Assembly (NCBI GenBank): GCA_029263175.1 | Contig: JAJCXZ010000081.1 | Span: forward strand, 2,851-66,850 | Length of the DNA: 64,000 nt | Reading direction: 5' to 3' | DNA from: Acidimicrobiales bacterium | GTDB taxonomy: Bacteria; Actinomycetota; Acidimicrobiia; Acidimicrobiales; Aldehydirespiratoraceae | In this document: positions 18,014 to 47,605 of the stretch, piece after piece | Numbering within the stretch: position 1 is the first letter of the stretch | Layout of the letters: the number at the start of each line of letters is the position of its first letter | Program-made: the position numbers and the translations under genes | The notes under the pieces: generated by a model | The model's input: only the letters and a program-made list of their open reading frames with translations | What the model was told of the DNA's origin: nothing | The model's database searches: none

Positions 18014-18050
18014 CTAACGCACACTGGGGTCTGTCCCCAGTGTGCGTTAG
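18014..18050. repeat. REP-like palindromic element, perfect copy
   Basis: CTAACGCACACTGGGG-TCTGT-CCCCAGTGTGCGTTAG; right arm contains the TAA stop of the LLM gene (18047..18049). Confidence 0.85.
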
Positions 18051-30275: not shown

Positions 30276-32891
30276 CTAGGAGGGGCCCGCTGCCGGTGTC
30301 GTTTCGGGCGGGGTCGACACACCGGGGCCGCTGAGGTAGCACCGGAGGTCGGCAAGTGCCATTGGTTTGGCGAAGAAAAAACCCTGCGCACGATCACACC
30401 CGAGCAGGGAGAGCTGGGTGAGAGCCTCGTTGGTTTCGACCCCTTCGGCAACCACTTCGAGACCGAGGTTGTGGGCGAGCGAGATGATCGAGCGGACGAT
30501 GGCGGACGCGGCTTCGTCTCCTGCAGCCATGCCCTGAACAAACGACTTGTCGATCTTCACTTCGCTCACCGGGAGGCTCTGCAGGTTCGACAACGAGGAG
30601 TGGCCGGTGCCGAAGTCATCGACCGCACTTCGGACTCCGAACTCGCCGAGTCGGCCGAGTACGTTGTGGGCGAGCAGCGGGTCGTCCATGACCTGGGTCT
30701 CGGTGAGTTCGATTGTGAGCCGATCTCCGGGAAGGCCGGCGTCTTCCGTCAGCGACCGGACCGCGTCGACCAACACCGGCTCGTAGAGGTTGCGGACCGA
30801 CACGTTGATCGACACGCCCACGAGATACCCCTCGGCGTTCAGCTGCGCAGTGTCGTGGATTGCTCGGTGGAGGACCCATCGTGTCAACGGGCGGATGAGA
30901 CCGGATACCTCGGCCAGGTCGATGAACTCTCCGGGGTTGACGAGACCGCGCTCCGGGTGATTCCAGCGCACGAGCGCTTCAACGCTGTTGACGTGGCCCG
31001 TATCGAGGCTGACTGCCGGCTGATAGTGGATCTCGAGGCGGTCCTGCGTGATCGCCTCGCGCAACTCGGTGACGAGCGTGAGACGCTGAAGGTTGGGCTG
31101 ATCGCGCTCGGGGTCATAGACGGCGATGCCTCCACCCCGTCGCTTGGCCACATACATGGCGATGTCGGCGTGCTTGCGCAACGCATCAGCGGAGTCGCCA
31201 TGGTCGGGATAGAGGGCAACCCCAAGACTGGCGCCGGTTTGAAGGCTCATGCCATCTATCTCCATCGGCTCCTCGAAGCACGCTAGGACTCGCTCGGCGG
31301 CTCGAAGGGTGCGGCGCGGCGACACATCGTCGGTGAGGAGAACCGCGAACTCGTCGCCTCCCAGCCGGGCGACGGTGTCGACGGCGCGCACGACTCCTTG
31401 GATGCGATCGGCGACGGCGCAGAGGAGCCGGTCGCCCTCATCGTGGCCGAGCGTGTCGTTGACCTCTTTGAACTGGTTGAGGTCCAGCATCAACAGGCCC
31501 ACGGAACTGTGGTCTCGCCCGGCGGCGTCGAGGGCATGGCGGAGTCGATCCTCCAACAATGTGCGGTTCGGAAGCCCGGTGAGAGCATCGTGCAGCGCTT
31601 GATGGCGGAGGCGGGCGGCCGTGGTGACTCGCTCGGTGACATCGACCACGTTCATCCCGATCAACACATCGGAGATGGGGAACGCCTCGAGCGAGAGAAT
31701 TCGATCTCCACCGTTGCGGAGATCGCCGGCCTCTTCGACACGACGGGCCTGGCCCGCTTCGGCCACCTGAAGAAGGACTCGACGCACGTCGACCCAGCCG
31801 GGCCCGGTTATGGGACTGGCGACGCTATTGCTGACAAGGGCGGTGGCACTCAGCCCGGTCAGCTTCTCATAGGCGGGGTTGACCGACAGGGTCGTGAAGA
31901 TCGTGTCGCCATTGACGTTCTCGGCCTGAGCAACCACGAGCCCCACGGGCACCCGCTCGACGAGCTCGGCGAGATTGCGGTTTGACTCCCGGACCCGAAC
32001 CTCGTCGGTGATGTCGGTGACGACGCCTCGAGCGGTCGTGGGTTTGCCGTTGGCATCGGTCTCTACGCGAACGCGGTCGCGTACGTGGCGCAAACTGCCG
32101 TCAGCCGCGGTGAGCCGATAGATGAGCTCATGGTCCTCGCCGGCTTCGATGAGGGTCTGGGATCGGTTGACGACCGTCGATCGATCAAACGCGGGAAGCC
32201 GCTGAAGCCAGGCACCAGGCCCGGTGACGTCGGCGACCGGGAGGCCGAGGATGCCCTCGACCCGCCCTGACACCTCCGCATCGACGAACGGGTATGGATG
32301 CGCCTCCCAAACGACAGCGTCGATGCCATCGAGCAGTTCGTCGCGTCGCTGTCGCTCGTGGCGCTCCGATGACGAGATGACGGAGATGAAGTACGCCATG
32401 CCGAGCGCGGTGGACAGGTAGGTGGCCATGATGATGACCGAATCATCGACTGCTCGAACGGCGAGGGCCGCGCCGATGAAGGGTGCGCCACCAACGGTGG
32501 CCGCAACCGTTGGCCGCCATCCGGCAGTCGCTGCGACGCTGGTGGAGGCCATCAGTAGCACAGCTGCTGCCGCTGCTGTGTTGGGATCAATCAACACGCC
32601 GAGACTGAGCAGGACACTGTCGCTCAGCACGATTGCCCAGGGATGGGGGCGGATCAGATCAACTCGTTCACGAACGACCAGGTTGATCGGGAGCCCGACG
32701 AGCAGCAGCACCAGCGTGATGAAGGGTTCGATGTCCACGAACGGTGTGATCGAGACCACGCCCAGGGTGACCAACCCCACGCAGCGCACGGTGAAGAACA
32801 GGCGCCAGAGTTCACGCTCGAACTCGCGATGATTCGTGGAGTCTTCGGTCATCTGATCGCCCCGCCCGGGCGGCCGCCTTTCCTTCGACAT
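30276..32891 (-). CDS. membrane-anchored PAS/GGDEF/EAL signalling protein (c-di-GMP turnover)
   Basis: N-terminal TM block, RLGGDEFAVLL (GGDEF), SVEALVRW (EAL), DDFGTGHSSL; start may be ATG 32852 instead. Confidence 0.85.
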   Translation of the reverse strand: MSKERRPPGRGDQMTEDSTNHREFERELWRLFFTVRCVGLVTLGVVSITPFVDIEPFITLVLLLVGLPINLVVRERVDLIRPHPWAIVLSDSVLLSLGVLIDPNTAAAAAVLLMASTSVAATAGWRPTVAATVGGAPFIGAALAVRAVDDSVIIMATYLSTALGMAYFISVISSSERHERQRRDELLDGIDAVVWEAHPYPFVDAEVSGRVEGILGLPVADVTGPGAWLQRLPAFDRSTVVNRSQTLIEAGEDHELIYRLTAADGSLRHVRDRVRVETDANGKPTTARGVVTDITDEVRVRESNRNLAELVERVPVGLVVAQAENVNGDTIFTTLSVNPAYEKLTGLSATALVSNSVASPITGPGWVDVRRVLLQVAEAGQARRVEEAGDLRNGGDRILSLEAFPISDVLIGMNVVDVTERVTTAARLRHQALHDALTGLPNRTLLEDRLRHALDAAGRDHSSVGLLMLDLNQFKEVNDTLGHDEGDRLLCAVADRIQGVVRAVDTVARLGGDEFAVLLTDDVSPRRTLRAAERVLACFEEPMEIDGMSLQTGASLGVALYPDHGDSADALRKHADIAMYVAKRRGGGIAVYDPERDQPNLQRLTLVTELREAITQDRLEIHYQPAVSLDTGHVNSVEALVRWNHPERGLVNPGEFIDLAEVSGLIRPLTRWVLHRAIHDTAQLNAEGYLVGVSINVSVRNLYEPVLVDAVRSLTEDAGLPGDRLTIELTETQVMDDPLLAHNVLGRLGEFGVRSAVDDFGTGHSSLSNLQSLPVSEVKIDKSFVQGMAAGDEAASAIVRSIISLAHNLGLEVVAEGVETNEALTQLSLLGCDRAQGFFFAKPMALADLRCYLSGPGVSTPPETTPAAGPS

Positions 32892-32931: not shown

Positions 32932-33837
32932 GTGGAAAACTTGTGGATTTCTGCAACCTACGATTGGGGTGTGACGGTGCGTGTCGACAAGCCCTCTGAC
33001 CTGCGCGAGCCGGTGCTTGCCTGGGGTGCATCAAACCTTCGCGATCTGCCTTGGCGTCGGACTCGTGACCCGTGGACGATCCTGGTCTCGGAAACGATGC
33101 TTCAGCAGACTCAAGTGGCTCGAGTGGTGGCGCGGCTTGCTGAGTTCCTCGACCAGTTTCCTGACGCCTCAGCCTGCGCCGCAGTCAGCGCCGGCGATGT
33201 TGTGACGGCCTGGGCCGGCCTCGGGTACAACCGGAGACCGCTGATGCTTCACCGTGCGGCCACCCAGATTGTCGCCGTTCACGCTGGTGAGGTCCCGTCC
33301 GACTTCGAGGCGCTGCTCGCACTGCCGGGAGTCGGGCCCTACACGGCGCGAGCCGTGAGGGCGTTTGCGTTCGAGCTCTCCGCGGCAGTCGTGGACACCA
33401 ACATCGGGCGTGTCTACGCCCGCGTCCAGGGAAGCAAGCTCACCGCCCGCGAGGTGCAGGCGTTTGCCGACGAGGCATCGTCAGACGATCAGCCGTGGCT
33501 CTGGAATCAGTCGGTCATGGAACTCGGCGCACTCATCTGTACCAAGCAGGCTCCCTCGTGCGGTGCTTGCCCCATCAGGGAGATCTGCGCGTGGGCAGGG
33601 GAGGGCGATGACCCGGCTCAGGGCTCGGCGGCGGTCTCGGTGTCACAGGCGCGGTTCGAAGGAAGCGACCGTCAGCTGCGTGGGCGACTGGTCGACGTCC
33701 TGCGCTCGGCTCCGGTCCCGTTGAGCAAGCTCGCGGCGACCATGAAGACCGATCCCACCCGCGCCGAGAAGATCCTGGCCGGCCTCCAGCGGGACGGCCT
33801 TGTCGTCACCACCAACGACCACGCGAGGTTGCCCTAA
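32932..33837 (+). CDS. HhH-GPD base-excision glycosylase, MutY-like (4Fe-4S loop)
   Basis: LPGVGPYTARAV helix-hairpin-helix, C-x6-C-x2-C-x5-C (CTKQAPSCGACPIREIC); TAA stop lies inside the REP arm; start uncertain. Confidence 0.75.
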   Translation: MENLWISATYDWGVTVRVDKPSDLREPVLAWGASNLRDLPWRRTRDPWTILVSETMLQQTQVARVVARLAEFLDQFPDASACAAVSAGDVVTAWAGLGYNRRPLMLHRAATQIVAVHAGEVPSDFEALLALPGVGPYTARAVRAFAFELSAAVVDTNIGRVYARVQGSKLTAREVQAFADEASSDDQPWLWNQSVMELGALICTKQAPSCGACPIREICAWAGEGDDPAQGSAAVSVSQARFEGSDRQLRGRLVDVLRSAPVPLSKLAATMKTDPTRAEKILAGLQRDGLVVTTNDHARLP

Positions 33838-33870
33838 CGCACGCTGGGGACAGACCCCAGTGTGCGTTAG
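33834..33870. repeat. REP-like palindromic element
   Basis: CTAACGCACGCTGGGG-ACAGA-CCCCAGTGTGCGTTAG; both arms provide TAA stops (mutY-like on +, RAYT on -). Confidence 0.85.
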
Positions 33871-34694
33871 CGATTGAGAATCGAGCGGAGCCGCTGCCAT
33901 GTCTCGGCAAAAGTTGAATCTGCCTGTCGACAGTCTCGGGCCCGCCGGGCAGCTGAACGGACCGTGGACGCCGTGGTGAATCCGAACGACCCGACGAGGG
34001 AACCCGGCTTCATCCCCGCCAGTTCCACGAGTCCCAGGACGAGTAGCAGGCGGGCGTCGTTGCGATGATGCCGGCGAGTGCTGAACAACTCTGCGTGGGT
34101 CGCGTCGGTCAACTCCATCACGGCGAGAATCACATCCTCTCTCGCGGATGTGGTGTCCTCAGGCCGATCGGCCTCGACGAACGACCGATAGCCGGCGGGC
34201 CCGTTCAGCATCTCGAGGACAGTGTCGGTGTGGAGCCACGATGGTGGCCGTCGGAGACCGAGGTAGCTGCGGTGGCTCGACCAGTGATAGTCGGCGAGTT
34301 GGTCGACCTCTGAGATGTCGAGCGGGTTGCGAGCGACGTAGCGAATGACCGTCAGCAGCTGTCGGTCATCGGTGATTGGCTCTGATCCGAAACGCCCGCG
34401 AAACAGCGGACCGTCGACCTCATGGTGATGGTTGAACTGCTGGGTGTACATCTGGCCGATGTATCCGATGGCTCGAGAGAGGTTGGCTTTCGGGGCACGG
34501 GTCACCAGGTGGTAGTGATTGCCCATCAGACAGAACCCGTGGATCTCGATGCCATAGCTGTCAACCGCGGTTTGCAGCAGCCCAACGAACGCCCGTCGAT
34601 CATCGTCGGTCTGAAAGATCGGCCAACGACGCGCGCCGCGGTTGAAGACGTGGTCCCAGTTTCCCTCTGCTGATGATCGAGCATGACGAGCCAT
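33867..34694 (-). CDS. REP-associated tyrosine transposase-like (IS200/Y1_Tnp family) protein
   Basis: Start ATG 34694 (MARHARSS...); HUH motif GNHYHLV, catalytic-Tyr region IRYVARNP; longer ORF-track version reads through the upstream REP and is rejected. Confidence 0.75.
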   Translation of the reverse strand: MARHARSSAEGNWDHVFNRGARRWPIFQTDDDRRAFVGLLQTAVDSYGIEIHGFCLMGNHYHLVTRAPKANLSRAIGYIGQMYTQQFNHHHEVDGPLFRGRFGSEPITDDRQLLTVIRYVARNPLDISEVDQLADYHWSSHRSYLGLRRPPSWLHTDTVLEMLNGPAGYRSFVEADRPEDTTSAREDVILAVMELTDATHAELFSTRRHHRNDARLLLVLGLVELAGMKPGSLVGSFGFTTASTVRSAARRARDCRQADSTFAETWQRLRSILNR

Positions 34695-34744
34695 GCCCGA
34701 GCAACCTAGGCCGACGGTGTGACAGCGCCCCGTCGAGTGAGTCT

Positions 34745-34781
34745 CTAACGCACGCTGGGGTCTGTCCCCAGTGTGCGTTAG
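34745..34781. repeat. REP-like palindromic element
   Basis: CTAACGCACGCTGGGG-TCTGT-CCCCAGTGTGCGTTAG; right arm holds the TAA stop of the UGSC gene. Confidence 0.85.
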
Positions 34782-35308
34782 AGCCCGGTGAGCGACGCGA
34801 TCAGTTCGTCGACCGCTTTGTCGGCGATCTCCCGCATCTCGTCGTCGGTGCGGTCCTGGATCGGATGCTCGGTGTAGACACGAGCGGGTTCGATCCCGAG
34901 GCTCGCCGCCTGTGCTTCCGCGGCAGAAGTGAATTCGACCGTGGCCACGAACACGCCGGGGATTCCGCGGCGCTCGAGATCGCTGATGTCGTGCACACTG
35001 CACGACGTGCAACTTCCTCAATCGGCCAATGCTTCGATCACCGCATCACATGACGTGGCGATCTCATGGCGCAGGTCGACAGGGGCAGGCTTGGCAAATG
35101 TCGGCTTCGCGAAGCGCTTCACCTCGGCGCCGACAGCAGTCAGCCGCTCTTCGATCTGATCGAGGAAGACGTTGCCGCGTGCCTTGGAGATGTCGAGCAA
35201 ACCAACGGTGAGACCGTTGAGAGACTCCGGTCGAGTGACCAGTTCGCGGTGCTGAGGCTTCAGCTCTCCGGTGGGATCCAGAACGACGGTGTTCGCAGAC
35301 GTGCTCAT
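34778..35308 (-). CDS. UGSC-motif selenoprotein (in-frame TGA at 35018..35020)
   Basis: ORFs 35018..35308 and 34778..34996 are in the same frame, separated only by TGA: ...CDAVIEALAD-U-GSCTSCSVHDISDLERRG...; SECIS-like hairpin 11 nt 3' of UGA; ATG overlaps upstream stop (ATGA). Confidence 0.75.
34988..35006 (-). promoter_or_regulatory. putative bacterial SECIS hairpin (UGSC gene)
   Basis: mRNA GUCGUGCA-GUG-UGCACGAC, 19 nt, begins at nt 12 after UGA. Confidence 0.6.
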
Positions 35309-36759
35309 CGGGTGATCTCCTTCGTGACGGTGACACTACCTGTGCCGCCTGCTACCCATCCACCGAACGTCATGGAGAAAAGGCCGGCATTGCTGCCGGC
35401 GTGAACGACATGAATGCCGCCCGGTGGGAACTTCGGGACCTGGATGCCGGCAAACGCTTCGGGAAGTCCCTCTCCGATGCCATCGGCACCATGGATGATC
35501 TCGTCGGCCTCGATCATGAGATGGCGCTCGAGTTCCTCCAGGAAACGTACGCGGTCCCAACCGGCGTCTTTGAAGCGAGCCATGTGTTCGGGGCCGATCA
35601 CCAGCATCGTTTCGAATCCCATGGCGAGACGGGGGCTGATGTTGGCGCGCAGGGCCAGTGCCATGTGCTTGACCAGTGAGTCAGCCGATCGGGAGATCTG
35701 ATCGAAGATGATGCGAGGGGATTCGCCGGAGAACAGCGTCACGGTCGACTGGTCGACGGAGAACCCTCGACTCTCGGCCAACGAGGTCCACGGCGACCCC
35801 TCCTCGTCCTCGGGAAAGGCCAAGCCGATCTTGTGCGGGCTGCCGTGAGTCGATCGGTCGACGCCACCGGGCTTGCCGCCGCCGACATTGGAGATCACCA
35901 ACTGCAGCGCGCGCCCGATCGTGGAGTTGGCCCGGTTGCCTTGGCCAAGCACGTTCATCCCGCTGTTCATGCCGATCTCACGACGGATCGGTCCGTTGAC
36001 GATGATGACCGGACCCGTCGGCATCGTGGTGGCCAGGAGACCGTGCATGTTGAACTCGTCGGTGCATGCGGCCTCGACCGCGGCGATGACGACAGGTAGG
36101 TACTCAGGCAGACAACCAGCCATCACCGCGTTGACCGCGATCTTCTCGACAGTGCACTCGACGAGGTCGGGGGGCACGATCGCCACGACGTCCTGAGGGT
36201 CCCTACTCGTGCCCTGGAGCATGCGGAGAACGCGCGCCTCGGTCGGAGGGACGACCGGCAGGCCATCGCTCCAGTCCCGGTCGTACATCGCTTCCCACTC
36301 GTCTTCGAGCGCGGCGATCTCCACTCGGCGGCTGTTCATCGTCGACTTCGAGAACCGAACGGCCAGCTCATCAGTGCGAGACGGATCGACGCTCAGCGAA
36401 CCGCAGCCGGGCCGCCATTCGGGAAGGTCGGGGCCGAGACCATCGACCCCGGTGAGCGACTCCCAGTCCTCACGAGACCAGCCTTCGATCTGGGTCGTGG
36501 CTGCCCCGTCTGCGACTCGCAGCAGGGTCGGCACGGTCACGATGTCGTGGTGCCAGGAGAGGGCGAGGTCCTGGTCGAACACGACCCAATCGGCGGCCGC
36601 GGGAAAGTCGGGATTGTCCTGCGTGATCACGGTGATGTCGGCCCGCTCGGCCAGGTCGGCGAGCACCGGAGCGACCAGCACGCACGTCGGGCAATCTTCC
36701 TTGACGATGGCTACCAACCCGTCGGGCAGCGGCGGTCGAGTCGTTGCATCAGCGCTCAT
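35305..36759 (-). CDS. thioredoxin-like (CPTC) domain fused to a large uncharacterised domain
   Basis: Start ATG 36759 (MSADATTRPP...); N-terminal VKEDCPTCVLVAP...VPTLL Trx-like module; about 370-aa C-terminal part not recognised; translationally coupled to the UGSC gene. Confidence 0.6.
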   Translation of the reverse strand: MSADATTRPPLPDGLVAIVKEDCPTCVLVAPVLADLAERADITVITQDNPDFPAAADWVVFDQDLALSWHHDIVTVPTLLRVADGAATTQIEGWSREDWESLTGVDGLGPDLPEWRPGCGSLSVDPSRTDELAVRFSKSTMNSRRVEIAALEDEWEAMYDRDWSDGLPVVPPTEARVLRMLQGTSRDPQDVVAIVPPDLVECTVEKIAVNAVMAGCLPEYLPVVIAAVEAACTDEFNMHGLLATTMPTGPVIIVNGPIRREIGMNSGMNVLGQGNRANSTIGRALQLVISNVGGGKPGGVDRSTHGSPHKIGLAFPEDEEGSPWTSLAESRGFSVDQSTVTLFSGESPRIIFDQISRSADSLVKHMALALRANISPRLAMGFETMLVIGPEHMARFKDAGWDRVRFLEELERHLMIEADEIIHGADGIGEGLPEAFAGIQVPKFPPGGIHVVHAGSNAGLFSMTFGGWVAGGTGSVTVTKEITR

Positions 36760-36849
36760 CGCCCCACTCTGGCACACCGAAAGAATGGTGAGATATTCGT
36801 CACACACATCTCGACGGCTGTGGACAACCTGGCTACCTTGGGCGAGGTA

Positions 36850-37710
36850 ATGGGGGAATTCCGAGAAGCAGTCACGATTGCGTTCCATGGTGTTCGCGGG
36901 TCGACGCCCTGCAGCTGTCCGCAACTGCAGCGCTATGGCGGCAATACGTCGTGCGTCACGATCGAGACCCCAGGGCACGATCCGATCGTTCTCGACCTCG
37001 GCACCGGACTGCGGATGTGGGGAGCTTCGCTCGGCCGCCCCGAGTCGCTCACGGTCCACGCGCTGGTCACCCATCTGCACTGGGACCACGTCCAGGGCCT
37101 GCCGTTCTTCAAGCCCCTGCAGTGCGACTCCACCACCCTCAACGTCTACGGACCGGGCGAGGGCGGCGAGTCGTTGGGGGAGTGCTTCAATCGGTTCATG
37201 ACACCCCCGTTCTTCCCGATTCAACCGAAAGACCTGCCCGCCACCGTCGAGTTCCGCGATGCGCTGTGCAGCGACTTCACCATCGGTGATGCATCGATCA
37301 TGGCGCGACCGGTTCCACACACCGGACCCACCGCCGGTTATCGCGTGACCTACGGCGATCTGGCGGTCGCCTATGTGCCCGACCACCAGCAGCCGGTCGA
37401 CACGTCCGTCGTGGCCGAGTCAGTGCTCGAGCTCTGCGACGGTGTCGACCTGCTCATCCACGATGCGCAGCTTCGTGCCGATGAATTCCCCGACAAGTCC
37501 GACTGGGGTCACTGCACCCCGGCCTACGCCGTCGAGGTTGCTCGGCAAAGCGGCGCGAAGTCGTTGGTGCTCTTCCACCATGACCCTGGCCACGACGATG
37601 CCGAACTCGATCGCATGACCGAGAGAGCTCGAGAGATCGCCGGCGCTGACGGGGTATCGGTCATCGCCGCCACCGAAGGCCTGAAGCTCACCCTCGGCGC
37701 CGGTCTCTGA
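36850..37710 (+). CDS. MBL-fold metallo-hydrolase
   Basis: Start ATG 36850 (MGEFREAVTIAFHGVRGS...); HLHWDH (HxHxDH) and later His/Asp ligands (HDAQ, FHHDP). Confidence 0.8.
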   Translation: MGEFREAVTIAFHGVRGSTPCSCPQLQRYGGNTSCVTIETPGHDPIVLDLGTGLRMWGASLGRPESLTVHALVTHLHWDHVQGLPFFKPLQCDSTTLNVYGPGEGGESLGECFNRFMTPPFFPIQPKDLPATVEFRDALCSDFTIGDASIMARPVPHTGPTAGYRVTYGDLAVAYVPDHQQPVDTSVVAESVLELCDGVDLLIHDAQLRADEFPDKSDWGHCTPAYAVEVARQSGAKSLVLFHHDPGHDDAELDRMTERAREIAGADGVSVIAATEGLKLTLGAGL

Positions 37711-37766
37711 TCCGCTGGGGTGGGGCGCTACTCTCTGCCTCACTCGACCGAGAACTGGAGACCGAT

Positions 37767-38261
37767 ATGTCGTTCGATGGCGCTGACTTCCGGCGCGTGC
37801 TTGGCCACTTTCCCACTGGTGTCACCGTGGTGACCGCGATGGACGACGAGGGCCCCGCAGGCATGGCGATCGGCTCGTTCGCTTCGGTCTCGCTCGACCC
37901 GCCTCTCGTGATGTTCTGCCCCGCCAAGGACTCCGGCAGCTGGCTTCGGATGAAGGACGCCGGCAGCTTCTGTGTGAACGTGCTCGGCGCCGACCAGGCC
38001 GCGACGTGTGGCCTCTTCGCCGGTCGTGCCGAAGACAAGTTCGAGGACATCTCGTGGACGACCGATGCCACGGGAGCTCCGGTCATCCCCGGATCGATAG
38101 CGGTCATGGATTGCGAGCTCCACGCCATACACGATGGCGGTGATCACGACATCGTTGTGGGCCTCGTGAAGTCGCTGTGGACCGACCCGGGCCTCGAAGA
38201 GGATCCTCGTGGTCCGCTCCTGTTCTTTCAGGGCCGCCTCGGACAGTTCCAGGACTTCTAG
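37767..38261 (+). CDS. flavin reductase family (HpaC/NADH:flavin oxidoreductase small component-like)
   Basis: FRRVLGHFPTGVTVVT and SFASVSLDPPLV motifs. Confidence 0.8.
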   Translation: MSFDGADFRRVLGHFPTGVTVVTAMDDEGPAGMAIGSFASVSLDPPLVMFCPAKDSGSWLRMKDAGSFCVNVLGADQAATCGLFAGRAEDKFEDISWTTDATGAPVIPGSIAVMDCELHAIHDGGDHDIVVGLVKSLWTDPGLEEDPRGPLLFFQGRLGQFQDF

Positions 38262-38779
38262 TGCCGATCTACGCCCTCGGCGATCGAGTGCCCGAGATCC
38301 ACGAATCGGCCTACATCTCGCCTGAGGCGACGCTGATCGGAAGTGTGGTCATCGGCGCCGACTCTTCGGTGTGGCCCGGTGCCGTCATCCGTGCCGACGA
38401 CAACTACATCCGCGTGGGAGAAGGCACATCGATTCAGGACGGCGCGGTGTTGCACTGCACCGCATCGCTGGAGACGGTCGTCGGCGACTACTGCACCGTT
38501 GGTCACCTCGCCCATCTCGAAGGCTGCACTGTGCACGATCACTCGTTGATCGGCTCCGGGTCGATTGTGTTGCACGAGGCGATCATCGGCCCGCACGCCC
38601 TCGTCGGCGGTGCGGCGATGGTGCCCGGCGGCGTCGAGGTGCCGCCTCGTGCGATGGCGCTCGGCGTCCCGGCGAAGATCCTTCTTGACAAGCTGCTCGA
38701 GCATCACTCTCGCGAAGGCGCCGACAGCTACATCGAGCGGAGCCGGCGATTCCGCACCGGGCTGCGGCGGGTCGACTGA
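38261..38779 (+). CDS. gamma-class carbonic anhydrase/hexapeptide-repeat family protein
   Basis: GTG 38261 overlapping upstream TAG; left-handed beta-helix repeats, SVWPGAVIRAD and IQDGAVLH motifs. Confidence 0.8.
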   Translation: MPIYALGDRVPEIHESAYISPEATLIGSVVIGADSSVWPGAVIRADDNYIRVGEGTSIQDGAVLHCTASLETVVGDYCTVGHLAHLEGCTVHDHSLIGSGSIVLHEAIIGPHALVGGAAMVPGGVEVPPRAMALGVPAKILLDKLLEHHSREGADSYIERSRRFRTGLRRVD

Positions 38780-38780
38780 C

Positions 38781-39332
38781 ATGAGCCCGGCTCCGTTTCG
38801 GATCCTGGTCATGTGCACGGCCAACGTGTGCCGTTCGCCGATGACTGAAGCATTCGTACGTCGAGCCGCGGACGCGCTCGGGGTCGATGTCGTTGTCGAC
38901 TCGGCCGGGTTTCTCTCCCAGGACGAGGAGGCGACCCCTGTGGTCGTCGAGATCATGGGGGAGCGCGGCATCGACATCTCCGGCCATCGTTCGCGCATCG
39001 TCACGGCGGAGATGGCGCACCAGGCCGACCTTGTCGTGGCCATGGAGCGGCGCCATGTTCGCGACCTCGCTCTCCTTGCCCCTGAAGCAGTTGCGCGAAT
39101 CGACACGCTCGGAGGCCTGGTCGAGCGACTTCAGGGCGTGACGGCCGAGTCGCCGGCCGGAAGAATCGCCGCTGCCACCGCACCGCGACTCGCCGGCGAC
39201 ATGCTCGGTCGAGGCGACGATGAGATCGACGATCCCTACGGCAAGTCGAAGAAGGTGAATCGAGAGACGGCCGGCCGGCTCGCCGAACTGAGCGACGCAC
39301 TCATCGCCGGACTGTTCCAGTCCGGCGTCTGA
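38781..39332 (+). CDS. low-molecular-weight protein-tyrosine/arsenate-type phosphatase
   Basis: Start ATG 38781; P-loop VMCTANVCRSPM (Cx5R[ST]); DDPYG aspartate loop. Confidence 0.8.
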   Translation: MSPAPFRILVMCTANVCRSPMTEAFVRRAADALGVDVVVDSAGFLSQDEEATPVVVEIMGERGIDISGHRSRIVTAEMAHQADLVVAMERRHVRDLALLAPEAVARIDTLGGLVERLQGVTAESPAGRIAAATAPRLAGDMLGRGDDEIDDPYGKSKKVNRETAGRLAELSDALIAGLFQSGV

Positions 39333-39335
39333 GCC

Positions 39336-39839
39336 TCACCCCAAGCGCTCGACGACGCGCCCGGCACCCAACGGGTCAGCCATGAGCGCCCGCAGCGACA
39401 TCCCCAGGCCGTAGGTGACGAACCGCCGCGGGAGAGGGATTCGGAGGAAGCAACCGTCGGCGAGTTCGAGCTCGCCGTGTCCGGTGATCTTCGTGAGTTC
39501 GCCTCGCTCCACCAGCTCAGTCAGGATGGGCGAGTCGGGGCTGAGGATCTCAGCCGTCGACTGAAACTGAATCGTGGACGGCGGGCCGACGGGGATACGG
39601 CGAACCGGAACGGTGATGGCCACCGTCGGGTTCGCGGCGATGTTGCGGGCCTTGCGGCTCGGACGCAAGGTCGAGATGAAGAGCGTATCGTCGGCTAGGG
39701 CGTAAATCACGCCGGCCACGTGCGCCCGCTCCCGCGTGGATGTCGTGGCCAGCGTGGCGAACGAGCGGCGGGCGAGGGCTCGCTCGATCTGTCTGTCGAC
39801 TGGAGATGATTCTGAAGTTGTTGTTGGCATGACGTCCAT
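39336..39839 (-). CDS. pyridoxamine 5'-phosphate oxidase (PPOX/F420-binding split-barrel) family protein
   Basis: FATLATTS..RAHVAGVIY..LFIST..SRKARNIAANP pattern. Confidence 0.7.
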   Translation of the reverse strand: MDVMPTTTSESSPVDRQIERALARRSFATLATTSTRERAHVAGVIYALADDTLFISTLRPSRKARNIAANPTVAITVPVRRIPVGPPSTIQFQSTAEILSPDSPILTELVERGELTKITGHGELELADGCFLRIPLPRRFVTYGLGMSLRALMADPLGAGRVVERLG

Positions 39840-40969: not shown

Positions 40970-42841
40970 GTGGAATTGGCTCCTGTAGCACCGCGGCATC
41001 GTCCGGACGATCATGAGATCCCCGACGGCATGACGCTGCTCTACGCGGATCTACCTGAACGGCCCGAACCACCGGCGGAGCGGAGTCGGGTCGAGCTCAT
41101 GCTCGGCGTCGTCGCCACGGTGGGTGCCGCCACAGTCGGCGCCCGAGTCGTGGGCGACGTGTTCGGGTCCGCCGGCGCTCCCCGCCGGTCGCACCGCGAG
41201 TATGCCGGAGCGGAAACCGTCGCTGGGTTCGTTGGCCTCGAGCGTGTCGTCGGCCCCGACCAGGCAGTGCTTCGGTTGGACGATGTGCCGATCGTCGAAT
41301 ACGCACCGATCAGCGCCGACGACGACGCCCGCTCGGTCGTGGACTCGGCCCCGCTACCGGCGCCTCTGCCCAGCACGGGCACGCCGCCCAAGTCACTACC
41401 GGTCGCTCCGGCGCCCACCGAATCCGCCCCGAAACCACCCGCCCCGACAACGAGTACCACGGTGCCCGCCAGCACAGTTCCGGCCACCACGGTCCCCTCA
41501 ACCAACCCGACGACCAGCGTTCCGCCAACCACCGCCCCGACAACTACGACGTCACCGACAACGACAGCCCCGCCCGCTGACGTTGAGCCGCCGGATGAGA
41601 TTCGCAGTCTCGCCCTGGTGGCCGGGTTCAACTTGACGTCGCAGATGGCGGGGACGATTGACGCCGTCGGCTTTGAGGGGTGGGTCGACATGCAGCTCGA
41701 CCCCTCGACGACTCCTGACCCTGTCGTCGACGCCGTGGTGGCCGATTTCGACCTGCTTGACGCCGACCCGGAACACCTTCGGGCCAACGGGCTCGGCCCC
41801 GCTGCGCTCTCGCAGACACGATGGGCCGGATTTGCCCGAACGCTGGTCGGGGAACGCCAGGTTGTGGAGACAGTGGTGTCGTTGTGGCGGGAGTTCTTCG
41901 CCGTTCGTGCACCGGAGGCCGATCTCGTCGAACTCGAGCAGGTCATCCGAAAACACGCCCTCGGCGGCTATGCCGTCCTGCTCGACGCTGTCGTCGGTTC
42001 GGCGGCCACTCGCTCTGCGTTCGCGCTCCCGGCGGAGCCGTCGGTCGAGCAGATCGTCGACAGCAACCTGGCCCGCACCGTCCTCGAACGGTTCGCCTAT
42101 GGCGATCCGGAGAGATTCGACGAAGTGGCGATTGATCGTGCAGCCGCGGCGCTCGCCGACGACCCGCTCGGGTTCGTCACCGTACTGGTGGCCGAGCCGG
42201 CGGTCGTTTCCAACATCAGTGGGCTCCTGGCCCGCCGGCTTCTCGGCGATGGGGTCGGCGCCGACGCGCTTACTGCCGCGGAGGCCGCGTTCGCGTCTTC
42301 GGGCGGTTCGGTCCGTGCGGTCGTGCGTCGGCTCCTGCTCGATGGCGTCGGGCTCGCTGACCCCAGCCGGATTCGCAGCGGCACGGGGTGGCTCACGGCA
42401 GGTCTCAGGTCGCTTGGGGCTGATGTCATGATCGGCGGCCCGTGGGACCCGGCCGATCCTGGTTCGCTGCCAGGGCTTCTCCGTCTTCTCGATGCCGAGC
42501 CTGGCACCGGCGTGATTCGTTCCGACGAGGACTGGCTCGCGCCCACGGTGGTCACCGGGCGTTGGCAGATCGCCCGCTCATTGACGGGCGAAGAGCTGAG
42601 CGACGTGTCTCTCCCGGCCGTCGATCTGCCGGCGGTGGCATCGGCGCGAGAACTCGTCGACGTGATCGCGGAATCGTGTGACGCGGTGCTCTCCGAGGCG
42701 GAGCGTGCTGCCGTCCTGCACTACCTGTCCCTGGATCCGACGCAGCCCGCTCCCGTTTTGGTCGGATCCGAGATCGCGGACGTCAGAGGCCTGATTCTCA
42801 GCTTCCCTTCATTCCAGCGTCGAGACGGAGGCGGGCAGTGA
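40970..42841 (+). CDS. DUF1800-like protein with long Pro/Thr-rich N-terminal region
   Basis: TM segment, about 60-aa P/T/S-rich tract, then DUF1800-type C-terminal domain; paired with DUF1501; start codon uncertain. Confidence 0.6.
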   Translation: MELAPVAPRHRPDDHEIPDGMTLLYADLPERPEPPAERSRVELMLGVVATVGAATVGARVVGDVFGSAGAPRRSHREYAGAETVAGFVGLERVVGPDQAVLRLDDVPIVEYAPISADDDARSVVDSAPLPAPLPSTGTPPKSLPVAPAPTESAPKPPAPTTSTTVPASTVPATTVPSTNPTTSVPPTTAPTTTTSPTTTAPPADVEPPDEIRSLALVAGFNLTSQMAGTIDAVGFEGWVDMQLDPSTTPDPVVDAVVADFDLLDADPEHLRANGLGPAALSQTRWAGFARTLVGERQVVETVVSLWREFFAVRAPEADLVELEQVIRKHALGGYAVLLDAVVGSAATRSAFALPAEPSVEQIVDSNLARTVLERFAYGDPERFDEVAIDRAAAALADDPLGFVTVLVAEPAVVSNISGLLARRLLGDGVGADALTAAEAAFASSGGSVRAVVRRLLLDGVGLADPSRIRSGTGWLTAGLRSLGADVMIGGPWDPADPGSLPGLLRLLDAEPGTGVIRSDEDWLAPTVVTGRWQIARSLTGEELSDVSLPAVDLPAVASARELVDVIAESCDAVLSEAERAAVLHYLSLDPTQPAPVLVGSEIADVRGLILSFPSFQRRDGGGQ

Positions 42842-44124
42842 GTCTCCGCTCACCACAGGCTCTCCGACCCGCTCAAAGGCTGAGTCGCCGTTCGCTGCTC
42901 GGGGGGATGGTCGGCGTCGGTGCCGGCACGATCGCACTACGCCCGACAGCCGCCGGGGCTCAAGGTGACGATGCGGAAGAAGGAGATGACGGCGGCGGAA
43001 CACTCGCTCGAACGGGTGCCGTCGTCGTCGTCCACCTCATCGGCGGGCTCGACGGTCTGTCGCTGGTTGTTCCGCATACAAGCGACGACTACTACCGACT
43101 CCGGCCATCGACTGCGATCGCACGGCCCGGTGAACCTGGTGGTGCGGTTCCCTTTGTCGCGGACTGGGGGCTTCATCCCGCTCTTGCCCCTCTCGTGAAC
43201 GAGGTCGGCACAGACACCTTCGCGGTGGTCGCTGGAGTCGGCCACCCCGACACGCTTCGTAATCGCAGCCATCGCCTCGCGCTGAGGCGCCTCCACCGCG
43301 GCGGTCATCAACGCGGACGCAATGGCTGGGGGACGCGACTCCTCGAGGGTGGTGGTCAGAGCGGCGAACTCGCGTGGACTGCCGACGACGACGGCCACCC
43401 CGTGTTTCGAGGGCTCCGTGGCCTCAACGCGGGACAGGGCTTCGCCTCCCCGACTGCTCAGTTCAATGATCCTGGTCGCGCCGTCGAGGCGCTTGCCGCG
43501 GCCTATGCCGGCACGACTGCGATCGACGCGGCAGGGCGGGAAGCGATCGGCCGGGCCGGGCGGGCGGCGCAGTTTTCGTGGTCGGCGCCTACCGATCGGG
43601 GCTACCCGACCGGGTCGCTCGGGTCGCAGCTTGCCGGAGCGGCCGATGTGTTGCGGTCATCGATCGGTGTTCGGCTCGTTGCTGTCGATCACGAGGGATA
43701 CGACACGCACGCCGATCAGGGCGACGGGATCGGCGGCGTTCTCGCCGTGCGACTCGACGAGTTGGCGACCGCGCTCGCCGCGTTCTGGTCCGACCTGGGT
43801 CCGCTGTCGACTGGTGTGACCGTCGTTGCGGTCAGCGAATTCGGTCGCCGTGTCCAGGAGAACCGCCGCGGCGGCACGAATCACGGTCGTGGTGGCGCCG
43901 CTCTAGTACTCGATCGGTCCGTTGTCAGCGGAATTCATGCGACTCCTGACACGCTTGACCCCGAGCTCGACCGCGGTGCCTGGCCGGTCACGGTCGGGGT
44001 TCACCAGCTGCTCGCCGACGTCATGGCCAGCCGAGGTTTGAACCCCTGGATCGGCGATGATGACGACGCGCCGTTCAGCGACGTGGCTCTCGACGATTCG
44101 GTAGGCGTCATTCGGGCCGGTTGA
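42838..44124 (+). CDS. DUF1501 domain-containing protein (Tat signal)
   Basis: SRRSLLGGMVG twin-arginine signal; SEFGRRVQENRRGGTNHGRGG motif; paralogue of 16702..18009. Confidence 0.8.
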   Translation: MSLRSPQALRPAQRLSRRSLLGGMVGVGAGTIALRPTAAGAQGDDAEEGDDGGGTLARTGAVVVVHLIGGLDGLSLVVPHTSDDYYRLRPSTAIARPGEPGGAVPFVADWGLHPALAPLVNEVGTDTFAVVAGVGHPDTLRNRSHRLALRRLHRGGHQRGRNGWGTRLLEGGGQSGELAWTADDDGHPVFRGLRGLNAGQGFASPTAQFNDPGRAVEALAAAYAGTTAIDAAGREAIGRAGRAAQFSWSAPTDRGYPTGSLGSQLAGAADVLRSSIGVRLVAVDHEGYDTHADQGDGIGGVLAVRLDELATALAAFWSDLGPLSTGVTVVAVSEFGRRVQENRRGGTNHGRGGAALVLDRSVVSGIHATPDTLDPELDRGAWPVTVGVHQLLADVMASRGLNPWIGDDDDAPFSDVALDDSVGVIRAG

Positions 44125-47545: not shown

Positions 47546-47605
47546 CCAACGCACGCTGGGGTCTGCGTTGTCGCAGCGAGGACGCTGTCCCCAGTGTGCG
47601 TTCGG
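47546..47605. repeat. REP-like element with about 20 nt inserted in the loop
   Basis: CCAACGCACGCTGGGGTCTG-[CGTTGTCGCAGCGAGGACGC]-TGTCCCCAGTGTGCGTTCGG; the insert is itself an imperfect hairpin. Confidence 0.7.

What the first reader, a model, noticed from the sequence alone, without database searches (positions are those of the whole stretch)
34778..35308. UGSC-motif selenoprotein hidden as two ORFs
ORF 35018..35308 ends ...SCDAVIEALAD at TGA 35018..35020. The next ORF (34778..34996) lies in the same frame 21 nt later. Read-through gives ALAD-U-GSC-TSC-SVHDISDLERRGIPGVFV..., i.e. a U-G-S-C motif. As far as I recall, a 'UGSC-containing' selenoprotein family was defined from marine metagenomes and is annotated as 'UGSC family (seleno)protein'. 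The mRNA forms GUCGUGCA-GUG-UGCACGAC starting 11 nt after the UGA. The function of this family is unknown to me.
Basis: partly seen in the sequence, partly recalled or inferred. Interest (0 to 1): 0.7.

Follow-up and report, generated by a model that had tools for sequence, protein, structure and literature searches.

The report
UGSC-family selenoprotein gene with SECIS
The two short ORFs are really one gene for a known but uncharacterised selenocysteine-containing protein (UGSC family) in an Acidimicrobiia-type actinobacterium; it is an ordinary member of its family, and it always sits behind a thioredoxin-domain partner gene.

Summary
ORFs 35308..35018 and 34996..34778 (minus strand) share a frame across TGA 35020..35018. 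The 176-aa read-through product passes the curated models NF041046 (157 bits, cut-off 125) and PF24696.

The TGA is present in all 80 related genomes fetched. More distant homologues carry Cys there.

The hairpin 11 nt downstream is a genuine RNA element:
- Its codons show almost no synonymous variation (0.10 versus 1.22 bits elsewhere).
- One pair covaries (G-C to A-U).
- Two distant Cys-form genes lack the hairpin; a third keeps part and the closest keeps it intact.

In four related genomes selD, selA, selB and tRNA-Sec lie directly next to the operon. None lies in this 64-kb window.

- A 484-aa partner gene (thioredoxin-fold N-terminus with CPTC, then a large domain matching no family) overlaps the UGSC start (ATGA) here. 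It precedes UGSC in 85 of 85 loci and is fused to it in some organisms.
- The predicted fold is flavodoxin-like, not thioredoxin-like.
- The Sec region is remotely related to GrdB/PrdB reductase selenoproteins.

The family has been known since about 2007-2008. Its function is still unknown, so interest is modest.

The parts
34778..35308 (-). UGSC-family selenoprotein gene: 176 codons plus TAA, with Sec at codon 97
   Evidence: Translation. NF041046 scores 156.9 bits (cut-off 125) and PF24696 152 bits. About 1,700 homologues were found.
35018..35020 (-). In-frame TGA read as selenocysteine (U of the U-G-S-C motif)
   Evidence: TGA is at the aligned position in 82 of 82 sequences: the window, its duplicate contig L001 and 80 independent genome loci. 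Distant full-length homologues have Cys there.
34988..35006 (-). SECIS core hairpin: 8-bp stem GUCGUGCA/UGCACGAC with apical loop GUG, starting 11 nt after the UGA
   Evidence: Sequence and fold. Pairs are kept in 76 distinct orthologous sequences, and pair 24-36 is G-C in 67, A-U in 6, G-U in 3 and never broken. Codons TGC-AGT-GTG-GAC are invariant in 81 genes. The hairpin is absent from distant Cys-form genes L082 and L085.
34974..35021 (-). Extended predicted stem around the core, with a lower helix that includes the UGA itself. It is less conserved than the core.
   Evidence: Minimum-free-energy fold of -20.8 kcal/mol. The lower and middle helices pair in most orthologues but with many mismatches. 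RNAalifold keeps only the 6-bp core.
35305..36759 (-). Partner gene, 484 aa. Its stop overlaps the UGSC start (ATGA), so the two are one operon and probably translationally coupled.
   Evidence: Sequences. A homologue lies immediately upstream of UGSC in 85 of 85 loci. It is fused to a UGSC domain in P0352 and P0327. More than 8,000 homologues were found, none with a Pfam domain.
36430..36726 (-). Thioredoxin-fold domain of the partner (residues about 12-110) with the C23-P-T-C26 motif
   Evidence: AlphaFold2 model. Foldseek matches to thioredoxins, ResA and DsbE with probability 1.0 and target TM about 0.5-0.6. Weak thioredoxin HMM hits. C23 and C26 are invariant in 33 homologues.
35308..36297 (-). 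Large C-terminal domain of the partner (residues about 155-484), which matches no described family
   Evidence: No Pfam or NCBIfam match in the window protein, three Cys-form partners or five fusion proteins. No PDB sequence match. Universally conserved motifs include GLPVVPPT, TVEK.A.NA..AGC and G.G.R.N..IGRA.

Best explanation
Window 35308..34778 (minus strand) is a single gene for a UGSC-family selenoprotein of an Acidimicrobiia-type actinobacterium.

How the UGA is read:
- UGA 35020..35018 is decoded as selenocysteine.
- A bacterial-type SECIS hairpin inside the coding sequence directs this. Its 8-bp stem and GUG loop start 11 nt downstream, at 35006..34988.
- By inference, the hairpin recruits SelB carrying Sec-tRNA(Sec).

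The operon:
- The gene is the second cistron of a strictly conserved two-gene operon.
- The upstream 484-aa partner has a thioredoxin-fold domain (CPTC) and a large uncharacterised domain.

The protein:
- UGSC is predicted to adopt a flavodoxin-like (beta-alpha)5 fold.
- The U-G-S-C motif sits at the N-terminus of the helix that follows strand 3.
- The segment around the motif is remotely homologous to the Sec-bearing part of the GrdB/GrdF/GrdH/PrdB 'selenoprotein B' reductase subunits.

Inferred mechanism, not shown:
- The selenolate of U97 attacks a substrate held by the partner's large domain.
- C100 resolves the adduct to a selenenylsulfide.
- The partner's thioredoxin domain re-reduces that bond.
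- The pair would therefore act as a self-contained Sec-dependent reductase for an unidentified small molecule.
For: Identity:
- NF041046 scores 156.9 bits (cut-off 125) and PF24696 152 bits.

Sec decoding:
- TGA is kept in 82 of 82 sequences (window, duplicate contig L001 and 80 loci), with conserved coding sequence on both sides.
- Distant homologues have Cys at the aligned position.
- Codons +4 to +10 after the UGA have a mean synonymous entropy of 0.10 bit. Seventy other conserved codons average 1.22 bits. Ser +7 is AGT in 81 of 81 genes, while Ser +2 uses six codons.
- There is one compensatory G-C to A-U pair with G-U intermediates, and it is never broken.
- Core hairpin energy averages -11.2 kcal/mol in 81 Sec forms, against -1.5 and 0.0 in two distant Cys forms.
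- selD, selA, selB and tRNA-Sec(tca) lie directly upstream of partner-UGSC in L018, L068, L074 and L080.

Partner link:
- The genes overlap in ATGA.
- The partner is upstream in 85 of 85 loci, including Cys forms from unrelated contexts.
- Fusion proteins P0352 and P0327 match the partner at 36-41% identity, E = 6e-64 and 7e-59.

Fold and the GrdB link:
- The AlphaFold2 model has pLDDT 89.5 and pTM 0.84, with (beta-alpha)5 order.
- Foldseek matches are to flavodoxin-like folds.
- Ten of 27 diverse family members hit the GrdB model TIGR01917 (best E = 2.9e-10). Others hit TIGR01918, GrdF, GrdH and PrdB. The window protein hits TIGR01917 at residues 82-129.

Thioredoxin domain of the partner.
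Against: - No Sec machinery or tRNA lies in the 64-kb window, so its presence in this genome is inferred from relatives.
- No protein-level evidence of Sec insertion exists here.
- The single-sequence fold is not better than shuffles (z = -0.76).
- Most stem pairs never vary, so covariation rests on one pair. The shuffle control is only marginal (4 of 500).
- One Cys-form gene (L083) keeps the hairpin intact and another (L084) keeps part of it. The Cys-form control therefore rests on two clean cases.
- The GrdB/PrdB similarity is local, about 50-70 residues, and far below the family cut-offs. hhalign against single PrdB-like reads is weak (E = 0.003-0.009, probability 4-11%).
- No GrdA, GrdE, PrdA or GrdC/D genes lie nearby.
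- The substrate and the role of the partner's large domain are unknown.
- The structural model is of the 64%-identical Cys form P0003, not the window protein.
Confidence: 0.88

Rival explanations
1. The TGA is a real stop. Either the locus encodes two separate small proteins (96 aa and 72 aa from GTG 34996), or it is a gene broken by a nonsense mutation.
For: Gene callers report it this way: the 96-aa product is the database entry, and most homologues are listed as 96-101-aa proteins. No Sec machinery lies in the window.
Against: - The same TGA, the same frame and the strongly conserved 21-nt 'gap' encoding GSCTSCS are kept in 80 other species-level genomes.
- Cys-containing homologues are continuous across the site.
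- The most conserved motif of the family, D-[C/U]-G-S-C, would be split.
- sel genes are adjacent in four relatives.
Confidence: 0.03
2. The UGA is read through by something other than Sec, either a reassigned genetic code (UGA = Trp or Gly) or near-cognate suppression. On this reading the hairpin only slows the ribosome.
For: Two database homologues show W or R at the position (P0002, P0001). These might reflect alternative translation tables or point mutations.
Against: - The upstream partner gene itself ends in TGA, so there is no code reassignment.
- The aligned residue in homologues is Cys, the usual counterpart of Sec.
- A complete selD-selA-selB-tRNA-Sec set sits next to the operon in four relatives.
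- The curated family model names it a selenoprotein.
Confidence: 0.03
3. The protein is a selenoprotein, but it works as a general thiol-disulfide or antioxidant oxidoreductase, as assumed for 'Trx-like' UxxC selenoproteins. It would not be the nucleophilic subunit of a substrate-specific reductase.
For: - It has a UxxC motif, and the partner carries a thioredoxin domain.
- The literature places the family among redox proteins with a presumed thioredoxin-like fold (PMC2398784, PMC13188914).
- In Acidimicrobiia the neighbours include a flavin reductase and other redox-type genes, without an obvious catabolic pathway.
Against: - The predicted fold is flavodoxin-like, not thioredoxin-like.
- There is homology to GrdB/PrdB-type catalytic selenoproteins.
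- It is obligately coupled, and sometimes fused, to a large 330-aa domain that has no role in a simple disulfide relay.
- Cys-form operons sit behind GntR or TetR regulators and TRAP, ABC or TonB uptake genes, or next to GST and amidohydrolase genes. That is typical of small-molecule catabolism.
Confidence: 0.3

Closest known systems
UGSC-containing selenoprotein family (NCBIfam NF041046, Pfam PF24696; Zhang & Gladyshev 2008, PMC2398784)
   Same: - It passes both curated models.
- The U-G-S-C (UxxC) motif is present and Sec forms far outnumber Cys forms.
- It comes from aquatic bacteria.
- Fusion to an unnamed domain was already noted in 2008 ('Unknown_1').
   Different: Nothing at the level of the gene. 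This analysis adds four points:
- a universal partner gene;
- a flavodoxin-like predicted fold, where the paper suggested a thioredoxin-like one;
- the link to GrdB/PrdB;
- adjacency of the sel gene cluster in some Acidimicrobiia.

Whether 'Unknown_1' is the partner's large domain could not be verified, because the supplementary figure is held only as an image.
Selenoprotein B subunits of glycine, sarcosine, betaine and D-proline reductases (GrdB, GrdF, GrdH, PrdB; TIGR01917, TIGR01918, PF07355)
   Same: - The UxxC motif follows a beta-strand and is followed by a helix and a '[LI]E..G[IV]P.V' strand.
- There are significant local HMM matches for the window protein (E = 1.4e-5) and for 10 of 27 family members (best 2.9e-10).
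- U aligns with U in hhalign against PrdB-like reads.
- Both work with a second, larger protein.
   Different: - UGSC has 176 aa against about 430 (GrdB) or about 240 (PrdB).
- Scores are far below the family cut-offs.
- No pyruvoyl subunit (GrdE or PrdA), GrdA or GrdC/D lies nearby.
- The partner is unrelated to those proteins by HMM.
- The host lineage appears to be aquatic Acidimicrobiia rather than Stickland-fermenting anaerobes.
Bacterial SECIS elements (E. coli fdhF type; bSECIS consensus, from general knowledge)
   Same: - The hairpin lies within the coding sequence immediately downstream of the UGA, starting 11 nt after it.
- 19 nt separate the UGA from the apical loop, and the loop contains G.
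- The UGA lies in the lower part of the extended stem.
   Different: - The loop has only three bases (GUG), or five if the closing A-U pair opens, and there is no obvious bulged U.
- No Rfam family matches.
- SelB binding has not been tested.
Thioredoxin-fold UxxC/CxxU selenoproteins (Trx-like, Prx-like, DsbA-like, SelW-like)
   Same: A redox-type UxxC motif at the N-terminus of a helix. The thioredoxin domain is present in the same operon, on the partner.
   Different: UGSC itself is predicted as (beta-alpha)5, flavodoxin-like. Its best PDB matches are flavodoxin-like folds at TM about 0.5, and no thioredoxins appear.

Membership tests
UGSC family (seleno)protein (NF041046 / PF24696) | Whole-protein score above the curated cut-offs | tested here: met
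   NF041046 scores 156.9 bits against 125. PF24696 scores 152.4 bits against 25.
UGSC family (seleno)protein (NF041046 / PF24696) | [U/C]-G-S-C motif at the conserved position, with Sec aligned to Cys in homologues | tested here: met
   ALAD-U-GSCTSC in the window. ADCGSCTSC in P0003, P0004, P0007, P0010 and others. D-C-G-x-C is at least 90% conserved in 27 diverse members.
UGSC family (seleno)protein (NF041046 / PF24696) | In-frame TGA conserved among orthologues | tested here: met
   82 of 82 sequences (window, duplicate contig L001 and 80 loci) have TGA.
Selenoprotein (bacterial Sec decoding) | SECIS hairpin shortly downstream of the UGA, under selection as RNA | tested here: met
   The hairpin occupies 35006..34988. 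Synonymous entropy is 0.10 against 1.22 bits. There is one compensatory pair and no broken cells. The hairpin is lost in distant Cys forms L082 and L085.
Selenoprotein (bacterial Sec decoding) | selA, selB, selC (tRNA-Sec) and selD present in the same genome | tested here: inconclusive
   None lies in the 64-kb window, and the rest of the genome is not available. In four related genomes all four lie next to the orthologous operon.
Selenoprotein (bacterial Sec decoding) | Selenium actually incorporated at the UGA | not testable with these tools
   This needs 75Se labelling or mass spectrometry.
GrdB/PrdB selenoprotein B family (TIGR01917, TIGR01918, TIGR04483, PF07355) | Whole-protein score above the family cut-off | tested here: not met
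   TIGR01917 scores 24.2 bits against 602. TIGR01918 scores 18.5 against 65.45. PF07355 was not reported at E <= 0.01.
GrdB/PrdB selenoprotein B family (TIGR01917, TIGR01918, TIGR04483, PF07355) | Homologous Sec-bearing segment with UxxC | tested here: met
   There is a local match of residues 82-129 to model positions 332-378. Ten of 27 family members hit TIGR01917, best E = 2.9e-10. U and C align with U and C of PrdB-like reads, but weakly.
GrdB/PrdB selenoprotein B family (TIGR01917, TIGR01918, TIGR04483, PF07355) | Genomic association with a pyruvoyl subunit (GrdE or PrdA) and GrdA or GrdC/D | tested here: not met
   The neighbours are the Trx-domain partner, Lactamase_B_2, Flavin_Reduct, hexapeptide, LMWPc, PNPOx and AraC genes. 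There are no Grd or Prd genes, and the partner has no Grd or Prd HMM hit.
Thioredoxin-fold oxidoreductases | Thioredoxin fold in the Sec protein itself | tested here: not met
   The AlphaFold2 model (pLDDT 89.5) has five beta-alpha units in order. Foldseek hits are flavodoxin-like folds. The thioredoxin fold is in the partner instead.

The most novel reading that the evidence does not exclude
UGSC and its obligate partner form a previously unrecognised, self-contained Sec-dependent reductase of aquatic Acidimicrobiia and other bacteria.

- It would be mechanistically akin to the GrdB/PrdB 'protein B' enzymes: Sec attacks a bound small molecule, Cys resolves the adduct, and a built-in thioredoxin domain recycles the pair.
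- It would use a new substrate-binding domain and operate outside Stickland-fermenting anaerobes.
- In some lineages the whole Sec machinery may be kept mainly for this one enzyme, since the sel cluster is adjacent to the operon there.
Probability: 0.3. Interest if true: 0.65.

Novelty: new member of a known kind. Interest (0 to 1): 0.3.

Why it matters
As an annotation matter, the locus is a textbook selenoprotein that gene callers split. The public copy of this contig lists only the 96-aa N-terminal fragment.

[quoted passage not shown] A 2026 review (PMC13188914) says the functions of nearly all such predicted selenoproteins, UGSC among them, remain largely uncharacterised.

Several results here turn 'unknown redox protein' into a testable two-protein enzyme hypothesis:
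- a universal, sometimes fused partner with its own thioredoxin domain;
- a flavodoxin-like fold with a GrdB/PrdB-like Sec segment;
- catabolic-operon contexts for the Cys forms;
- sel genes adjacent to the operon in some Acidimicrobiia.

These results also point to where the hypothesis could be tested, for example in cultured Ilumatobacter.

None of this makes the window's gene unusual within its family.

Tried and rejected
- **Rfam:** no family at gathering thresholds in the whole window. At E <= 10 around the gene only chance hits appeared, including a 14.9-bit 'tRNA-Sec' hit against a gathering score of 47.
- **Single-sequence folding:** as a significance test it was uninformative in this G+C-rich DNA (z = -0.76).
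- **PDB sequence searches:** UGSC gave nothing credible. The partner gave only a weak thioredoxin hit.
- **Foldseek on the full partner model:** it returned only thioredoxin-domain matches. The large domain could not be searched separately.
- **Pfam and NCBIfam on the partner's large domain:** nothing was found in the window protein, three Cys-form partners or five fusion proteins.
- **Structure prediction of the window protein with U replaced by C:** The 64%-identical Cys form P0003 was modelled instead.
- **A G+C-at-third-position scan for other read-through TGAs:** it listed only antisense-frame artefacts and did not recover the UGSC site itself. It says nothing either way.
- **tblastn with E. 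coli SelA, SelB and SelD against the window:** no hits.
- **Checking whether the 2008 'Unknown_1' fusion domain equals the partner:** the supplementary figure is held only as an image.
- **hhalign of the family profile against single GOS PrdB-like reads:** U aligns with U, but the statistics are weak.
- **Pyruvoyl-type self-cleavage at the conserved PGCGS linker (C119):** considered and set aside. The motif is absent from the UGSC-fusion proteins and nothing else supports it.

Full report
**Observation.** On the minus strand an ORF opens at ATG 35308 and runs 96 codons to TGA 35020..35018, ending ...SCDAVIEALAD. The same frame continues without a stop to TAA 34780..34778, reading GSCTSCSVHDISDLERRGIPGVFV.... 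The ORF listed from GTG 34996 is simply the downstream part of that frame. Read through, the product has 176 residues with the TGA at codon 97, which gives U-G-S-C. The stem-loop GUCGUGCA-GUG-UGCACGAC lies at 35006..34988 and begins 11 nt after the UGA.

**Family.** With U written as C, the product scores 156.9 bits against NCBIfam NF041046 'UGSC family (seleno)protein' (an equivalog model, cut-off 125). It scores 152.4 bits against Pfam PF24696 'UGSC'. The literature describes a 'UGSC-containing protein' with a UxxC motif. [quoted passage not shown] A 2026 review still lists it among selenoproteins whose functions remain largely uncharacterised (PMC13188914).

**Is the TGA really decoded?**
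- A protein search returned about 1,700 homologues. Most are 96-101-aa entries ending ...ALAD, which are Sec forms cut off by gene callers. A minority are full-length proteins of 171-187 aa with Cys at the aligned position (ADCGSCTSC).
- A scan of one genome per species gave at least 594 relatives. The best 80 are almost all Acidimicrobiia or Acidimicrobiales MAGs, and the closest is 91% identical.
- All 80, plus the window and its duplicate contig L001, carry TGA at the site, with conserved coding sequence on both sides.
- The partner gene immediately upstream ends in TGA, so the genetic code is standard.

**The hairpin as a SECIS element.**
- Folding the window sequence alone is not impressive (-20.8 kcal/mol, z = -0.76). 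Still, perfect 8-bp hairpins are rare in this window, and the chance of one starting 5-25 nt after a given site is about 0.0075.
- The comparative data are much stronger. In 81 distinct orthologous genes the codons forming the stem-loop (+4 to +10 after the UGA) have a mean synonymous-codon entropy of 0.10 bit. Seventy other equally conserved codons of the same gene average 1.22 bits, with a minimum of 0.23.
- Cys +6 is always TGC, Ser +7 always AGT, Val +8 always GTG and Asp +10 always GAC. Ser +2, outside the hairpin, uses six codons.
- The one stem pair that varies does so in a compensatory way: G-C in 67, A-U in 6, G-U in 3 and never unpaired.
- Because the other pairs never vary, the formal covariation statistics are only marginal (4 of 500 shuffles). 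RNAalifold retains just the 6-bp core. The lower helices, which include the UGA, are less well kept.
- As a control I fetched four Cys-form genes that encode nearly the same peptide. Two distant ones have no hairpin (-1.5 and 0.0 kcal/mol, against a mean of -11.2 in 81 Sec forms). One keeps a partial hairpin (-7.1). The closest (L083, TGT) keeps it intact, which suggests a recent Sec-to-Cys change.
- No Rfam family matches the region.

**Sec machinery.** The window has no tRNA gene and no tblastn match to E. coli SelA, SelB or SelD. In four of the 80 related loci (L018, L068, L074, L080) the full set lies directly upstream of the orthologous operon. The order is selD on the opposite strand, then selA, selB and a tRNA-Sec (anticodon tca), then partner and UGSC. 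This shows that the lineage decodes Sec and ties the machinery to this gene. For the window's own genome, its presence remains an inference.

**The partner gene.**
- The UGSC start overlaps the stop of a 484-aa ORF (36759..35305) in the sequence ATGA.
- A homologue of that protein lies immediately upstream of UGSC in 85 of 85 loci examined. These include Cys-form loci from quite different genomic settings.
- It has more than 8,000 database relatives, none with a Pfam domain. Where named, they are called 'thioredoxin family protein'.
- An AlphaFold2 model (pLDDT 76.7) shows a thioredoxin fold at residues about 12-110 carrying an invariant C23-P-T-C26. Foldseek matches to thioredoxins, ResA and DsbE have probability 1.0.
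- Next comes a low-confidence linker with a conserved P-G-C-G-S motif, and then a domain of about 330 aa that matches nothing in Pfam, NCBIfam or PDB sequences.
- A profile search of 1.84 billion representatives found 2,497 family members. Among them are proteins of 350-550 aa in which a UGSC domain is fused to this same large domain, without the thioredoxin part. P0352 is 41% identical over 252 aa (E = 6e-64) and P0327 is 36% identical (E = 7e-59).
- Universal adjacency plus fusion is strong evidence that the two proteins act together. The 2008 paper mentions a 'UGSC/Unknown_1' fusion, which is probably the same domain. I could not confirm this because the figure is held as an image.

**Fold and distant relatives.**
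The model has pLDDT 89.5 and pTM 0.84.
- It has five beta-alpha units in order. The Sec/Cys residue lies just after strand 3, at the N-terminus of a helix.
- The best PDB matches are flavodoxin-like folds at TM about 0.5, and no thioredoxins appear. The thioredoxin-like fold suggested in the 2008 paper is therefore not supported.
- The window protein also matches the glycine reductase selenoprotein B model locally: TIGR01917, E = 1.4e-5, residues 82-129 against model positions 332-378.
- Among 27 diverse family members, 10 hit TIGR01917 (best E = 2.9e-10). Others hit TIGR01918, GrdF, GrdH and PrdB models.
- hhalign against PrdB-like reads from the GOS supplement aligns U with U and the following '[LI]E..G[IV]P.V' strand, though weakly.
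- I read this as remote homology of the UGSC domain to the Sec-bearing part of the GrdB/PrdB subunits. It is not membership: the scores are far below the cut-offs, the long N-terminal part of GrdB is missing, and no Grd or Prd partner genes are nearby.

**Genomic context.**
- In Acidimicrobiia the operon lies in a syntenic block. A Lactamase_B_2 gene, a flavin reductase (in at least 44 loci) and a hexapeptide-repeat gene lie upstream. A MutY-like glycosylase lies convergently downstream. This may reflect only shared ancestry.
- The Cys-form operons are more telling. One context has GntR, a TonB-dependent receptor, TRAP transporter DctPQM, then partner and UGSC (L084, L090). Another has an ABC transporter upstream (L082). 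A third has TetR, GST, partner, UGSC and amidohydrolase_2 (L088, L089).
- These contexts look like small-molecule uptake and catabolism, not general stress defence.

**Most likely mechanism.**
- Shown: a single gene, a conserved Sec-UGA, an RNA hairpin under selection, Sec machinery in the lineage, and an obligate partner with a thioredoxin domain.
- Inferred: SelB with Sec-tRNA binds the hairpin and inserts Sec at codon 97. The selenolate of U97 acts as the nucleophile on a substrate held by the partner's large domain. C100 resolves the adduct into a selenenylsulfide. The partner's CPTC thioredoxin domain reduces that bond; in the fusions that lack this domain, free thioredoxin would do so. 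This mirrors the chemistry established for GrdB/PrdB-type enzymes (general knowledge).
- I put about 0.9 on the gene-level explanation and about 0.3-0.4 on the substrate-specific reductase reading. The main rival is a generic thiol-disulfide role (about 0.3).

**Novelty and score.** The family, its motif, its abundance in aquatic metagenomes and its fusion to an unnamed domain are all published, and curated HMMs exist. The window's gene is an ordinary member, 92% identical in its N-terminal ORF to database entries. The additions made here are the universal partner, the fold, the GrdB/PrdB link, the sel-cluster adjacency and the quantified SECIS constraint. They are useful leads on an open functional question, but they do not make this locus surprising. 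Interest is 0.3, and the novelty class is 'new member of a known kind'.

Noticed in passing
window 33831-33873 and 34742-34784, with 33867-34694 (-) between them; further copies at 18014-18050 and 47546-47604: A palindromic element of 37-43 nt (CTAACGCACRCTGGGG-N5-CCCCAGYGTGCGTTAG) occurs four times in the window, where 0.07 is expected by chance. Two copies flank a 275-aa IS200-like Y1 transposase gene (PF01797), which resembles a REP/RayT 'REPtron'. The copy at 34742-34784 supplies the last codon and the TAA stop of the UGSC gene. The copy at 33831-33873 supplies the stop of the convergent MutY-like gene. The 80 related genome loci and the Cys-form loci hold no exact copy of the element. The closest relative, L002, has no transposase between UGSC and the downstream gene.
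   Followed up: partly
L018 446-4483; L068 34-3758; L074 446-4501; L080 456-4511: In four Acidimicrobiia or Ilumatobacteraceae MAGs the complete Sec toolkit lies immediately upstream of the partner-UGSC operon: selD, selA, selB and tRNA-Sec with anticodon tca. This suggests UGSC is a principal client of the machinery in these lineages.
   Followed up: partly
L083 947-1486 (protein P0003): A close Cys-form homologue (TGT in place of TGA, 64% identical) still carries the exact SECIS core ACGTCGTGCAGTGTGCACGAC. This looks like a recent Sec-to-Cys conversion with a relic hairpin, or possibly a sequencing error in a 2.3-kb metagenome contig.
   Followed up: no
proteins P0001 and P0002: Two full-length database homologues show Arg (ALADRGSC) and Trp (ALADWGSC) at the Sec position. 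They may be point mutations of TGA (CGA, TGG), sequencing errors, or gene calls made with another translation table. Their DNA was not examined.
   Followed up: no
window 36403-36417 (-), partner residues 115-119 (W-R-P-G-C); alignment A8: A P-G-C-G-S motif lies in the low-confidence linker between the partner's thioredoxin domain and its large domain. It is conserved in all thioredoxin-bearing partners, whether linked to Sec or Cys forms, but is absent from the UGSC-fusion proteins. Its role is unknown. It echoes the [U/C]-G-S-C motif of UGSC itself.
   Followed up: partly
window 36820-39839 and L001; loci L002-L081: A syntenic block lies upstream of the operon in many Acidimicrobiia: Lactamase_B_2, a flavin reductase (at least 44 of 80 loci) and a hexapeptide-repeat protein. 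The window also has LMWPc and PNPOx-like genes there. Whether the flavin reductase feeds electrons to the system was not tested.
   Followed up: no
window 30276-32891 (-) and 40970-44124 (+): Ordinary neighbours: an 871-aa PAS-GGDEF-EAL signalling protein and a DUF1800/DUF1501 gene pair.
   Followed up: no
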